From Octopus sinensis (Eukaryota), in contig NC_043014.1 in the NCBI RefSeq assembly GCF_006345805.1, positions 51,026,001 through 51,090,000 of the forward strand: DNA of 64,000 nt. Direction: 5' to 3'. The position numbers and the translations under genes were made by a program. Below, in pieces: positions 4,021 to 56,604 of this stretch (its first letter is position 1; every line of letters starts with the position of its first letter). The notes below the pieces were generated by a model. That model made no database searches. It had not been told where the DNA came from and saw nothing but the letters and a program-made list of their open reading frames with translations.

Positions 4021-4988
4021 TATTTCTTTATTGCCCACAGGAGGCTAAGCACAGAGGGGGCAAACAAGAACAGACAAACGGATTAAGTCGATTATATCGA
4101 CCCCAGTGCGTAACTGGTACTTATTTAAACGACCCCGAAAAGCTGAAAGGCAAAGACGACATCGGTGGAATTTGAACTCAGAATGTAAAGACAAACGAAA
4201 AACCTATTTCTTTACTACCCACAAGGGGCCAAACACAGAGGGGGACAAACAAAGACTGACAAACGGATTAAGTCGATTACATGGCCCCCAGTGCCTAACT
4301 GGTACTTATTTAATCGACCCCTTAAGGATGAAAGGCAAAGTCGACCTCGGCGGAATTTAAACTCAGAACGTAGCGGCAGACGAAATACCTATTTCTTTAC
4401 TACCCACAAGGGGCTAAACACAGAGAGGACAAACAAGGACAGACAAACGGATTAAGTCGATTATATTGACCCCAGTGCCTAACTGGTACTTATTTAATCG
4501 ACCCCGAAAGGATGAAAGGCAAAGTCGACCTTGGTGGAATTTGAACTCAGAATGTAAAGACAGACGAAAAACCTATTTCTTTACTACCAAGAAGGGGGCC
4601 AAACACAGAGGACAAACAAGGACAGACAAACAGGTTAAGTCGATTATATTGACCCCAGTGCCTAACTGGTACTTATTTAATAGACCCCCGAAAGGCTGAA
4701 AGGCAAAGTCGACATCGGTAGAATTTGAACTCAGAATGTAAAGACAGACAAAAAACCTATTTCTTTACTACCAACAAGGGGCCAAACACAGAGAGGACAA
4801 ACAAGGACAGACAAACGGATTAAGTCGGTTATATCGACCCCAATGCCTAACTGGTACTTATTTAATCGACCCCGAAATGTTGAAAGGTAAAGTCGACCTC
4901 GGCGGAATTTGAACTGAGAACGTAACCGCAGACAAAATATCGCTAAGCATTCCGGCCGGCTTGCTAACGATTCTGCCAGTTCACCGCA
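4021..4988 (-). mobile_element. SINE family B: one head plus five tandem ~184 bp body units
   Basis: Units start at 4021, 4205, 4390, 4574 and 4758. Whole array flanked by GCAGATATATT at 4010-4020 and 4986-4996 (putative TSD). Confidence 0.92.
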
Positions 4989-21770: not shown

Positions 21771-21805
<35 letters not shown>

Positions 21806-21860
21806 ATAGAAAGAGCTTCTACAGGACTAGAACCGATTCATTCAAATGAAATCATCAGGA

Positions 21861-21911
21861 AGCTTCCTGATGATTTCATTTGAATGAAACAGTTCTAGTC
21901 ATGTAGAAGCT
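21861..21911 (+). ncRNA. Type I hammerhead ribozyme motif inside a 116 bp palindrome
   Basis: AGCTTC-CTGATGA-tTTCAttTGAAt-GAAACA-gttctagtca-TGTA/GAAGCT: 6 bp stem I, intact CUGANGA and GAAA core, GUA cleavage triplet at 21903-21905. Confidence 0.75.
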
Positions 21912-22007
21912 CCTTCTATAAAAGAAATTAATTTACTCTGCTATGTATTGAGTACCTTATTTACTGCGGTTAACCCCGACTCAACCCGGGACCTACATAT
22001 ATATATG

Positions 22008-33196: not shown

Positions 33197-33311
33197 ACTA
33201 TTCGTTTATACATACGTGTTTTTTGTATCGTATATCTGGATGTTTTGTTGTCTCCTTTGGTATCACCTAGTTATGCGGATGTTATGCGTTCTTGCCCCAT
33301 TTTGTATCATA

Positions 33312-33351
<40 letters not shown>

Positions 33352-33365
33352 AGAGAGAAAAAGAG

Positions 33366-33824
33366 CAGTTGTATATTATCAGCTTAACATGACAGTCCCA
33401 TAGAGGGAATTACACTACCGCTATTTAGCCCTAGGAAGCATTAAAGCTTCCTGTCGGCCTTGGCACATTTCCTGTGTCCTTATGTTTACAAAGGGGAGAC
33501 AAGCACCCCCAAAATCTAGGCCTGCATCTAGAGACATGTTTCTGAGTCTTGCTCGTCATCAGTCTGGAGTAGCACGGCTTGCTAGCTGCAGTTGCCTGTT
33601 TAGACCTTGTAAACATATATAATTCCAATGAAATAAATTCACTGATCACAAAAATTTGAAATACTAAATTTCTAAATATCTCAGAGAGATATAAGCAGTG
33701 GTGGTACGATAGAACAGTTGTATACTGTCAACTTAACATGACAGTCCCATAAAGGGAATCACACCACCGCTATTTAGCCCTAGGAAGCATCAACGCTTCC
33801 TGTCGGCCTTGACACATTTCCTGT
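33366..33824 (-). mobile_element. Retrozyme-like element: 349 bp monomer plus ~110 bp terminal direct repeat, in (TA)n
   Basis: 33366-33475 repeated at 33715-33824 (about 9 mismatches); single HHR between them; no ORF. Confidence 0.75.
33527..33568 (-). ncRNA. Minimal type I hammerhead ribozyme motif
   Basis: Minus: TCCAGA-CTGATGA-cGAG caaga CTCa-GAAACATGTC/TCTAGA; palindromic stem III ACATGT, GUC triplet, 5 of 6 stem I pairs. Confidence 0.78.
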
Positions 33825-33838
33825 TCACTTTAAAAGGG

Positions 33839-33874
<36 letters not shown>

Positions 33875-49933: not shown

Positions 49934-49990
<57 letters not shown>

Positions 49991-49992
<2 letters not shown>

Positions 49993-50428
49993 AACAAAGT
50001 CAGAATGCGATAAAATAAAATTAATTATTATCGCTGGTGATTCTAGCACAGGCCATATATTATTCATATATAAGTACATTAAAGGCGAAGTATGTACTAG
50101 ATACACAGAAGCTTGATAAATTTAGTGAAATGAAAATAAAAACTTTTACTAACTCGGTTCTTCTTAGACTGCAGTTTCGCCTATTTCATCAATAAAAATA
50201 ATATTTATTTACTCAGGTAGGCTCTTCAGTAAGATTCCTGTTATTTTGAGATCGCACTTCGATAGACACATGTGCGTCTACTGATTTGCTCTTTCTAACT
50301 AATCAGATCACTGCGCAGACGCAGAACGTACCCGACAAACTAGGGATTTCTGGTATATAGTCTAACGCTCAAAATTTATCGAGAAATATGTAAACAAAGT
50401 CAGAATGCGATAAAATAAAATTAATTAT
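49991..50428 (-). mobile_element. Retrozyme-like element: 400 bp monomer plus identical 38 bp terminal direct repeat, in (TA)n
   Basis: TAAACAAAGTCAGAATGCGATAAAATAAAATTAATTAT at 49991-50028 and 50391-50428; central HHR; no ORF. Confidence 0.78.
50162..50234 (-). ncRNA. Type I hammerhead ribozyme, fully canonical core
   Basis: Minus: TCTTA-CTGAAGA-GCCTA-[34 nt loop]-TAGGC-GAAACTGCAGTC/TAAGA. Perfect 5 bp stems I and II, palindromic stem III ACTGCAGT, predicted cleavage between 50167 and 50166. Confidence 0.88.
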
Positions 50429-50567: not shown

Positions 50568-50740
50568 TCAGTTAGTCCAAATATGTAAACACAACAACGC
50601 GAGGACGTGGAGCAAGTATAGTGTTATTGGACGCTCAGGAAGGAAGGAAAGATGGAGGGTATAACGTTTCGAGCGGAGCTCTTCGTCAGAAACATAGGAA
50701 AAGGAAAGATTCAAAGAAGGGAAGATGGAGAAAAAAAAAT
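50568..50740 (-). mobile_element. Short repeat with minimal hammerhead-like core
   Basis: Minus 50692-50660: TTT-CTGACGA-A-GAGC-TCC-GCTC-GAAACGTT-ATA; core intact, stem I weak. Confidence 0.62.
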
Positions 50741-54066: not shown

Positions 54067-54236
54067 TATCATTAATACGCCTAATGATAATAATAATTTG
54101 ATATATTGTATTAATATAACATACAGAGGTGTATCTTGCGCAGCGCATCATTTAACACCAGTAAGAACAACATAAGCATGCATCTAGGTGGGTGCTGAAA
54201 CTGTTAAATATTGAAGCTAAATATTCAAGCCATACC

Positions 54237-54650
54237 TATTTCTTTATTACCCACAAGGGGCTATACAAAGAGGGGACAAACAAAGACAGAAATAGGTATT
54301 AAGTCGATTACATGGACCCCAGTGCGTAACTGGTACTTATTTAATCAACCTCGAGAGGATGAAAGGCAAATTCGACCTCGGCAGAATTTGAACTCAAAAC
54401 ATATCGGCACACGAAATACCTATTTCTTTACTACCCACAAGGGGCTAAACATAGAGGGGACAAACAAGGACAATCACAGGTATTAAATAGATTACATTGA
54501 CCCCAGTGCGTAACTGGTACTTATTTAGTCGACCCCGAAAGGATGAAAGGCAAAGTCGACCTCCGCGGAATTTGAACTCAGAACGTAGCGGCAAACGAAA
54601 TACTGCTAAGCATTTCGCCCGTCATGCTTACGATTCTACCAGCTCGACGC
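54237..54650 (-). mobile_element. SINE family B: head plus two tandem body units
   Basis: Units start at 54237 and 54421; junction CGAAATACC|TATTTC. Confidence 0.88.
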
Positions 54651-55900: not shown

Positions 55901-56604
55901 AGGCATCGAGCTGGCAGAATCGCTACGGCGTCGGACAAAACGCTTAGCGTTATTTCGCCTGTCGATACGTTCTGAGTTCAAACTACGCCGAGGTCGACTA
56001 GAAAGGCGGCGAGCTGGCAGAAACGTTAGCACGCCGGGCGAAATGCTTAGCAGTATTTCGACTGCCGCTACGTTCTGAGTTCAAATTCCACCGAGATTGA
56101 CTTTGCCTTTCATCCTTTCGAGGTCGATTAAATAAGTACCAATTACGCACTGGGATCAATATAATCGACTTAATCCGTTTGTCTGTCCTTGTTTGTCCTC
56201 TCTGTGTTTAGCCCCTTGTGGGTAGTAAAGAAATACGTATTTTGTCTACCGCTACGTACTGAGTTCAAATTCCGCCGAGGTCGACTTTGCCTTTCATCCT
56301 TTCAGGGTCGATTAAGAAATACCAGTGACGCACTGGGGTAGATGTAATCGACTTAATCCGTTTGTCTGTCCTTGTTTGTCCCCTCTCTGTGCTTAGCCCC
56401 TTGTGGGTAGTAAAGAAATAGGTATTTTGTCTGCCGCTACGTTCTGAGTTCAAATTCCGCCGAGGTCGACTTTTCCTTTCATCCTTTCAGGGTGGATTAA
56501 ATAAATACCAGTTACGCACTGGGGTCGATGTAATCGACTTAATCCCTTTGTCTGTCCTTGTTTGTCCACACCGTGTTTAGCCCCTTGTGGGCAGTAAAGA
56601 AATA
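55901..56604 (+). mobile_element. SINE family B: partial head, then head plus three tandem body units
   Basis: Junctions AAAGAAATA(C/G)|GTATTTTGTCT at ~56236 and ~56421. Confidence 0.92.

What the first reader, a model, noticed from the sequence alone, without database searches (positions are those of the whole stretch)
33366..33824. Second, unrelated 349 nt ribozyme monomer with ~110 bp terminal direct repeat
Seen: 33366-33475 recurs at 33715-33824 (period 349, about 9 mismatches), flanked by (TA)n. Between the repeats lies a minus-strand minimal HHR TCCAGA-CTGATGA-cGAG/CTCa-GAAACATGTC-TCTAGA. I see no sequence similarity to the 400 nt element outside the catalytic core. Inference: an independent and older family with the same architecture (about 1.3 turns of a circle), which points to a general system rather than a one-off duplication.
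Basis: partly seen in the sequence, partly recalled or inferred. Interest (0 to 1): 0.8.

Follow-up and report, generated by a model that had tools for sequence, protein, structure and literature searches.

The report
Hammerhead retrozyme family targeted by LINEs
This is one of hundreds of copies of a 350-base non-coding repeat carrying a predicted self-cutting RNA, likely copied by Penelope-type jumping genes, and other copies of it are repeatedly interrupted by LINE jumping genes at fixed spots just before the ribozyme.

Summary
The 110-nt repeat (9 mismatches, period 349) and the minus-strand hammerhead are real. The element belongs to a dispersed non-coding family (495 exact hits of one 21-mer): a non-LTR retrozyme, a known kind. 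It is not a circle copied from random start points. 142 of 160 insertions end at two fixed 3' sites about 60 nt apart, 5' ends vary, 69 have an inverted 5' piece, and 42 of 50 classifiable inverted copies use one site at each end. A coding Penelope-like element in this genome shows the same pattern. Stem III is a palindrome (ACAUGU or ACUAGU), implying dimeric cleavage. Stem I is restored in the family; the stem II C·A is not. Unexpectedly, Tx1-type LINEs insert just upstream of the ribozyme core, with 13-22 nt duplications, in this family and four diverged relatives; some composites look re-copied by Penelope machinery. I found no paper on this; the scan noted Tx1 targeting of Penelope ends in two other genomes (unchecked). 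Cleavage, circles and the partner enzyme are untested or not found.

The parts
33362..33824 (-). Whole insertion: a 110-nt 5'-truncated unit followed by one full 349-nt unit (RNA sense is the minus strand)
   Evidence: the family's other copies end at the same base
33715..33824 (-). 5'-truncated upstream partial unit (pseudo-LTR); its 5' end at 33824 is a variable truncation point
33366..33475 (-). Last 110 nt of the full unit; the second copy of the direct repeat
33362..33366 (-). Fixed 3' end, site A (inferred first start site of reverse transcription); an internal copy of the site lies at about 33711-33715
   Evidence: 63 of 160 insertions end here
33650..33714 (-). 'Tail' of about 50-65 nt running from site A to site B (site B about 33650-33665); hairpin-rich
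   Evidence: 79 of 160 insertions end at B; folds
33527..33568 (-). Type I hammerhead: stem I 33568-33563 / 33532-33527, CUGAUGA 33562-33556, C·A at 33555/33543, stem II 33554-33544, GAAA 33542-33539, palindrome ACAUGU 33539-33534, predicted cut between 33533 and 33532. This copy has G>A at 33529, which breaks stem I
   Evidence: activity not tested
33515..33589 (-). Extended stem I with internal loops (predicted)
   Evidence: fold z-scores 1.1, -0.2, -0.3: no better than shuffles
33563..33594 (-). Tx1-type LINE landing zone, empty in this copy: group I duplication about 33583-33563, group II about 33594-33577
   Evidence: occupied in other copies: L214, L216, L298, L299 (group I), L210, L390 (group II)
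33309..33361 (.). (TA)n plus GA-rich microsatellite at the 3' junction
   Evidence: 59 of 155 insertions have a dinucleotide run within 40 nt of an end, against 48 of 523 background windows
33841..33871 (.). (TA)n near the 5' junction; no target-site duplication readable at this copy

Best explanation
It is a 5'-truncated tandem copy of a non-coding 350-nt hammerhead-bearing repeat (a non-LTR retrozyme) with two fixed 3' ends, likely copied and inserted by the reverse transcriptase and endonuclease of a Penelope-like element (PLE). Inferred cycle: a multimeric or circular RNA is bound by PLE protein; AT-rich or microsatellite DNA is nicked on both strands about 10-14 nt apart; cDNA starts inside the RNA at site A or site B and stops at random, often after more than one unit, which gives the terminal direct repeat. 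When both nicks prime, one usually uses A and the other B, which gives head-to-head inverted copies with the tail on one side. The hammerhead would cleave as a dimer through its palindromic stem III; cleavage does not define the ends of inserted copies. This copy has one hammerhead with a broken stem I and is likely dead. Separately, Tx1-type LINEs insert just 5' of the ribozyme core in this and related families (shown by junctions), and some LINE-retrozyme composites were likely re-copied by the PLE machinery.
For: Shown: 142 of 160 insertions end at A or B; 69 of 160 inverted; 42 A/B, 1 A/A, 7 B/B among 50 with both ends classed, p 6e-7. TSD in 29 of 155 against 5 of 1229 shuffled pairs, 27 of them 10-14 nt, 77% AT. 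A coding GIY-YIG-type PLE of this genome has the same two ends (14 and 16 of 30 loci) and inverted partners 9 A/B, 4 B/B, 0 A/A. Insertions span only 107-917 nt and the frame from the core ATG closes early in 12 of 12 copies. Stem III: 45 ACTAGT, 32 ACATGT, 1 ACTTGT, 0 ACAAGT of 78 when both middle bases were left free; 53 of 66 palindromic in an unselected sample. Across related families stem I covaries and C3-G8 changes to U3-A8. Literature: two internal RT start sites bound the PLE tail and both strands are cut and extended (PMC11167929); tail often at one end only, inverted 5' copies, microsatellite bias (PMC8557442).
Against: No coding PLE sharing sequence with this family was found (one PLE family examined). 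TSDs are readable in under a fifth of copies. The fixed C·A or U·U at the base of stem II departs from the canonical pair, monomer folds are no better than shuffles, Rfam misses the motif, and 8 of 9 predicted Xenopus retrozymes failed to cleave in vitro in the 2026 preprint. Samples favour conserved copies: they were picked by best score or exact 21-30-mers. 18 of 160 3' ends fit neither site.
Confidence: 0.85

Rival explanations
1. The unit is only the pseudo-LTR of a long coding Penelope element, left behind by strong 5' truncation.
For: All insertion marks are those of PLEs; PLE copies are mostly truncated; retrozymes resemble pLTRs in Xenopus (2026 preprint).
Against: Copies that pass the end of a unit continue into another unit (up to 2.6 units in L014/L015), not into an ORF. 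tblastn with two PLE proteins hit 2 of 209 loci, both decayed neighbours or insertion targets. The only shared 5' neighbours are LINE 3' ends.
Confidence: 0.07
2. Copies are rolling-circle cDNAs of a ribozyme-cut monomer or circle with ends set by chance or by the cleavage site.
For: Insertions longer than one unit need a circular or multimeric template; 170-400 nt retrozyme circles are shown in coral, mussel and axolotl (PMC7229834).
Against: 3' ends are fixed at A and B, about 170 and 230 nt downstream of the cut; 4 of 100 5' ends lie near the cut, as expected by chance. A circle may still be the template, but it does not set the ends.
Confidence: 0.04
3. The associated Tx1-type LINE is the enzyme that moves the unit, as a LINE moves a SINE.
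For: Intact sister LINE ORF2s exist (open frames to 1181 aa) and are physically linked to the family.
Against: The unit shares no 3' tail with the LINEs; its TSDs are 10-14 nt in AT-rich DNA, the LINE duplications 13-22 nt at the ribozyme; two internal start sites with A/B inverted ends are seen for the coding PLE.
Confidence: 0.03
4. On the LINE link only: it comes from template switching or from amplification of a few composites, not from site-specific insertion.
For: 17 of 22 composites examined lack upstream retrozyme sequence near the LINE's 5' end, and 4 have inverted or rearranged retrozyme pieces there; seven rows of one sample share flanks. So counts overstate events.
Against: At least 16 of 49 loci keep both junctions with a duplication of the target; tandem LINE-duplication-LINE arrays occur (L291, L298); several LINE families hit five retrozyme families at two fixed offsets.
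Confidence: 0.1

Closest known systems
Metazoan non-LTR retrozymes (Cervera & de la Peña 2020, PMC7229834; Li, Clavereau & Pollet 2026, bioRxiv 10.64898/2026.07.22.740005)
   Same: Non-coding 150-450 nt tandem unit, type I hammerhead, GC 40%, TSD longer than 4 bp, mostly monomeric dispersed copies. The one-pair stem III with palindromic tetraloop matches axolotl HHR_Amex1; the mismatch at the base of stem II parallels the U·U of HHR_Amex2.
   Different: Those papers infer PLE mobilisation from co-occurrence and pLTR similarity; in the text I read they do not map two start sites or inverted A/B ends, and do not mention LINE targeting. RNA circles and cleavage are shown there, not here.
Endonuclease-positive Penelope-like elements, e.g. 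anole Poseidon PAc (PMC11167929) and PLE architecture in PMC8557442
   Same: Partial tandems forming pseudo-LTRs, inverted 5' copies, two start sites bounding a tail, AT-rich and microsatellite targets, ends not set by the hammerhead.
   Different: No ORF; unit 350 nt; tail 50-65 nt rather than 30-40 nt (the coding PLE in this genome also has about 65 nt).
Target-specific Tx1-clade LINEs: Tx1L into Tx1D, Keno into U2, Kibi/Koshi, Tx1-Mar (PMC4494074)
   Same: Endonuclease + RT + zf-RVT ORF2, CCHC ORF1, long duplications, tandem piles at one site, multicopy targets including other transposons.
   Different: The target here is the 5' flank of a hammerhead core in five families whose duplicated sequences share little; the target is itself a mobile RNA that can carry the LINE. 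No such target in the passages read or the searches made.

Membership tests
Non-LTR retrozyme | Type I hammerhead core in each unit | tested here: met
   58 of 66 unselected copies keep CUGANGA + GAAA; non-canonical base of stem II
Non-LTR retrozyme | Short (150-450 nt), non-coding, GC below 50%, tandem or monomeric multicopy unit | tested here: met
   349-351 nt, GC 40%, up to 2.6 units, 495 hits, no open frame from the core ATG
Non-LTR retrozyme | TSD longer than 4 bp, no PBS/PPT-type LTR | tested here: met
   10-14 nt TSDs; the terminal repeat has a variable 5' end; PBS/PPT not searched for separately
Non-LTR retrozyme | Self-cleavage in vitro | not testable with these tools
   only covariation
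Non-LTR retrozyme | Expression as linear and circular RNA | tested here: inconclusive
   runs only guessed to be RNA, contigs only
PLE-mobilised element | Two fixed 3' ends bounding a tail | tested here: met
   142 of 160
PLE-mobilised element | 5' truncation, partial tandem, inverted 5' copy | tested here: met
PLE-mobilised element | Sequence link to an autonomous PLE | tested here: inconclusive
   one coding PLE family compared, no similarity; other families not surveyed
Autonomous PLE | RT + GIY-YIG ORF | tested here: not met
   spans 107-917 nt
Tx1 clade (the inserted LINEs) | ORF1 with CCHC knuckle; ORF2 with AP-type endonuclease, RT, zf-RVT | tested here: met
   Pfam PF00098, PF03372, PF00078, PF13966; nearest solved structures are L1 endonuclease
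Tx1 clade (the inserted LINEs) | Target preference above 20% of copies (criterion of PMC4494074) with long duplication | tested here: met
   16 of 27, 10 of 29, 11 of 30; duplications 13-22 nt
Tx1 clade (the inserted LINEs) | RT phylogeny with named Tx1 references | not tested
   no named Tx1 reference came back; the label rests on architecture and behaviour

The most novel reading that the evidence does not exclude
A three-tier parasite system: a Tx1 LINE lineage has made hammerhead retrozymes its landing pad, positions its cut by the ribozyme core rather than by the duplicated sequence, gets a defined RNA 3' end from the host ribozyme 50-60 nt downstream, and is spread to new loci as cargo by Penelope reverse transcriptase starting at sites A and B.
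Probability: 0.35. Interest if true: 0.8.

Novelty: new variant of a known kind. Interest (0 to 1): 0.57.

Why it matters
Two things add value. First, the junctions give insertion-level evidence that an animal retrozyme is moved by Penelope machinery, which published work left as inference, and the A/B asymmetry of inverted copies makes a testable prediction about how a PLE protein uses its two start sites on the two target strands. A 350-nt RNA is a ready substrate for the existing in vitro PLE assay. Second, a LINE lineage that lands beside a ribozyme across five diverged families raises the question of what its endonuclease reads, and offers natural hammerhead variants (U3-A8 core, C·A, U·U or G-C at stem II, several palindromes) for cleavage tests.

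Tried and rejected
Rfam on the whole window and on the element: no hammerhead hit. Partner PLE: one coding family (30 loci) shows no sequence link; the PLE-like pieces at L093 and L154 are a target and a decayed neighbour; family X4 is also non-coding (25 loci). Peak of 5' ends at the cleavage site: none; apparent peaks at unit positions 127 and 204 were partly alignment edges caused by the window copy's own changes. An ORF from the ATG in the core, as in anole PAc: closed early. RNA: no RNA holder listed; 4 of 24 runs laid, all contigs of guessed or unknown type; joints that go back 349 nt also exist in genomic tandems, so they say nothing on circles. My first reading of the shared 5' neighbours as SINE ends was dropped once ORFs were found. 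First TSD test had a noisy control (22 of 78 against 75 of 765) and was redone with a complexity filter. In one search I dropped four weak upstream matches (L211, L213, L293, L382) and two whole-unit repeats (L286, L380). Literature searches with no report of Tx1 targeting a hammerhead element; none on octopus hammerheads. The library lacks most subscription papers and Repbase, and I read no supplements; those of PMC4494074, PMC7229834 and the 2026 preprint may bear on novelty.

Full report
Observation. The repeat is real: 9 mismatches in 110 nt at offset 349, 114 nt at 91%, with (TA)n on both sides. The minus strand carries the hammerhead motif at 33562. Rfam reports nothing relevant. The genome is likely an octopod: the best named relative of an associated LINE protein is from Argonauta hians. 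Below, r is the position in the unit on the minus strand (window = 33715 - r).

Family. The element query gave 3593 first-look candidates, 40 scored. A 30-nt core pattern has 78 exact hits and a downstream 21-mer 495; both reversed controls gave 0. I analysed all 78 and the first 100 listed of the 495. Pieces of 200 nt or more lie a median 6.5% from the column majority (n = 111), the window unit 8.0%. Full-length hits of the 400-nt family are mostly 93-99% identical to its window copy, so 'older' holds.

Ribozyme. In copies picked without regard to the core, 66 of 100 cover it; 58 keep CUGANGA and GAAA and 53 have a palindromic stem III. With both middle bases free, the 78 split 45 ACTAGT, 32 ACATGT, 1 ACTTGT, 0 ACAAGT; this may be one inherited double change, but longer palindromes also occur. 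Stem III cannot close more than one pair in a monomer, the situation described for amphibian hammerheads that cleave as dimers (PMC7229834, passages and the end of Results plus Discussion read). Stem I is restored in the family (G in 113 of 125); the window copy has A. The base of stem II is C·A in 35, U·U in 14 and U-A in 12 of 66, so it is a family trait. Monomer folds are no better than shuffles. Activity is inferred, not shown.

Ends. Of 160 distinct insertions, 63 end at site A (window 33362-33366), 79 at site B 50-65 nt further on, 18 elsewhere. 69 have an inverted 5' piece; of the 50 with both ends classed, 42 are A/B, 1 A/A, 7 B/B (p 6e-7 against one half); 19 had an unclassed end. 5' ends are scattered, with 4 of 100 near the cleavage site. 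TSDs were read in 29 of 155 (two rows are one locus, one is an internal repeat) against 5 of 1229 shuffled pairs; 27 are 10-14 nt; 59 of 155 lie beside dinucleotide runs against 48 of 523 background windows; spans are 107-917 nt. These are PLE marks: two internal RT start sites bound the tail, both strands are cut and extended, and hammerhead cleavage is not needed for insertion (PMC11167929, main text read); inverted 5' copies and a tail at one end are typical (PMC8557442, passages). A coding PLE in this genome behaves alike: 14 and 16 of 30 loci end at two sites about 65 nt apart, and 13 inverted partners are 9 A/B, 4 B/B. Its PLE label rests on my recall of the motifs; Pfam gave no family. 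It shares no sequence with our unit, and tblastn hit 2 of 209 family loci, neither a partner.

LINE targeting. 11 of 168 copies have a foreign 3' end (TAATAAAGA) fused to them, 10 at r127-137 and one at r161. Wider stretches show LINEs with a CCHC ORF1 and an endonuclease-RT-zf-RVT ORF2, or ORF1-only derivatives of about 1.7 kb. I then searched from the LINE side. A hammerhead follows within 18-50 nt in 16 of 27 copies with a 3' end for one family (10 of 21 if seven rows with shared flanks count once), 10 of 29 for a second, and 11 of 30 found by protein (10 of 27 for sister families at about 71% identity); the first two sets include the query's own locus. Controls: 0 of 36 SINE-type ends and 12 of 3982 random bins. 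Targets are our family and four diverged relatives in which stem I covaries and the core can read UUGAUAA or UUGACAA. One relative, searched on its own, is also a short tandem or inverted non-coding unit, and 4 of 24 further copies carry a LINE end at the same place. At least 16 of 49 wider loci keep both junctions, plus L383 and L287 and L294 by eye. Group I LINEs duplicate about 17-22 nt ending 0-1 nt before the core; group II end about 8-14 nt before it. Tandem LINE-duplication-LINE arrays occur (L291, L298). Other subfamilies of the lineage have other targets. Of 22 composites examined, 17 lack upstream retrozyme sequence and some carry an inverted retrozyme piece against a truncated LINE (L283, L293, L219); L218 is a 7-kb head-to-head composite with a B end and an A end. 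I infer that PLE RT re-copied these; LINE boundaries were approximate for four of them. Copy counts therefore overstate independent events. The site is empty in the window copy.

Comparison. The element meets the sequence criteria for a non-LTR retrozyme; the 2026 preprint (abstract to end of Discussion read) already proposes these as non-autonomous PLE derivatives. Tx1 families are known to target snRNA genes, microsatellites and other transposons (PMC4494074, passages); the 23-bp duplication of Tx1L is recalled. Searches returned no report of a hammerhead target; the 2026 octopus repeat annotation does not mention ribozymes (PMC13282606, passages). Two unchecked notes of this scan describe Tx1 elements targeting Penelope ends in other genomes; I saw them after my own analysis and did not test them.

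Verdict. A real new family of a known kind, with direct marks of Penelope-type insertion and a LINE lineage that lands beside its ribozyme. Shown: family, ends, duplications, junctions. Inferred: PLE enzyme, dimeric cleavage, re-copying of composites. Untested: cleavage, circles, what the LINE endonuclease reads. Interest 0.57.

Noticed in passing
window 49987-50428 (minus strand): The 400-nt family: young (93-99% identity), up to about four tandem units, one fixed 3' end in the 20 loci seen, hammerhead with long stem II insert and palindrome ACTGCAGT; 860 first-look candidates.
   Followed up: partly
window about 50640-50700 (minus strand): A third hammerhead-like motif (CTGACGA-AGAGC-TCC-GCTC-GAAAC) in a short repeat also seen in L308; not related to either unit by eye.
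   Followed up: no
window 21800-21915: Near-perfect inverted repeat containing CTGATGA...GAAAC beside (TA)n; may be a head-to-head pair of hammerhead fragments.
   Followed up: no
L395:5633 on the reverse strand (G000:C27 about 17.509 Mb): A sister LINE subfamily sits in tandem with a duplication directly before a start codon whose product looks like histone H4 (recalled, not searched): possibly a histone-gene-targeting Tx1.
   Followed up: no
L231-L241, L322-L325, L399-L423: Related retrozyme families with natural U3-A8 (UUGAUAA, UUGACAA) or U3·G8 cores and canonical G-C at the base of stem II.
   Followed up: partly
L330-L359: Young coding Penelope-like family inserted in (TA)n, with a hammerhead-like motif whose core reads CCGAAGA and two 3' ends about 65 nt apart.
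   Followed up: partly
window 4021-4925, 54232-54603, 56053-56604: 184-bp SINE-like units in partial tandem arrays; their 3' end resembles the 3' motif of the Tx1-type LINEs.
   Followed up: no
L032, L058, L084, L094, L097, L107 and others: Site A ends often run directly into (CT)n then (TA)n, suggesting priming on compound microsatellites or slippage at the start of cDNA.
   Followed up: no
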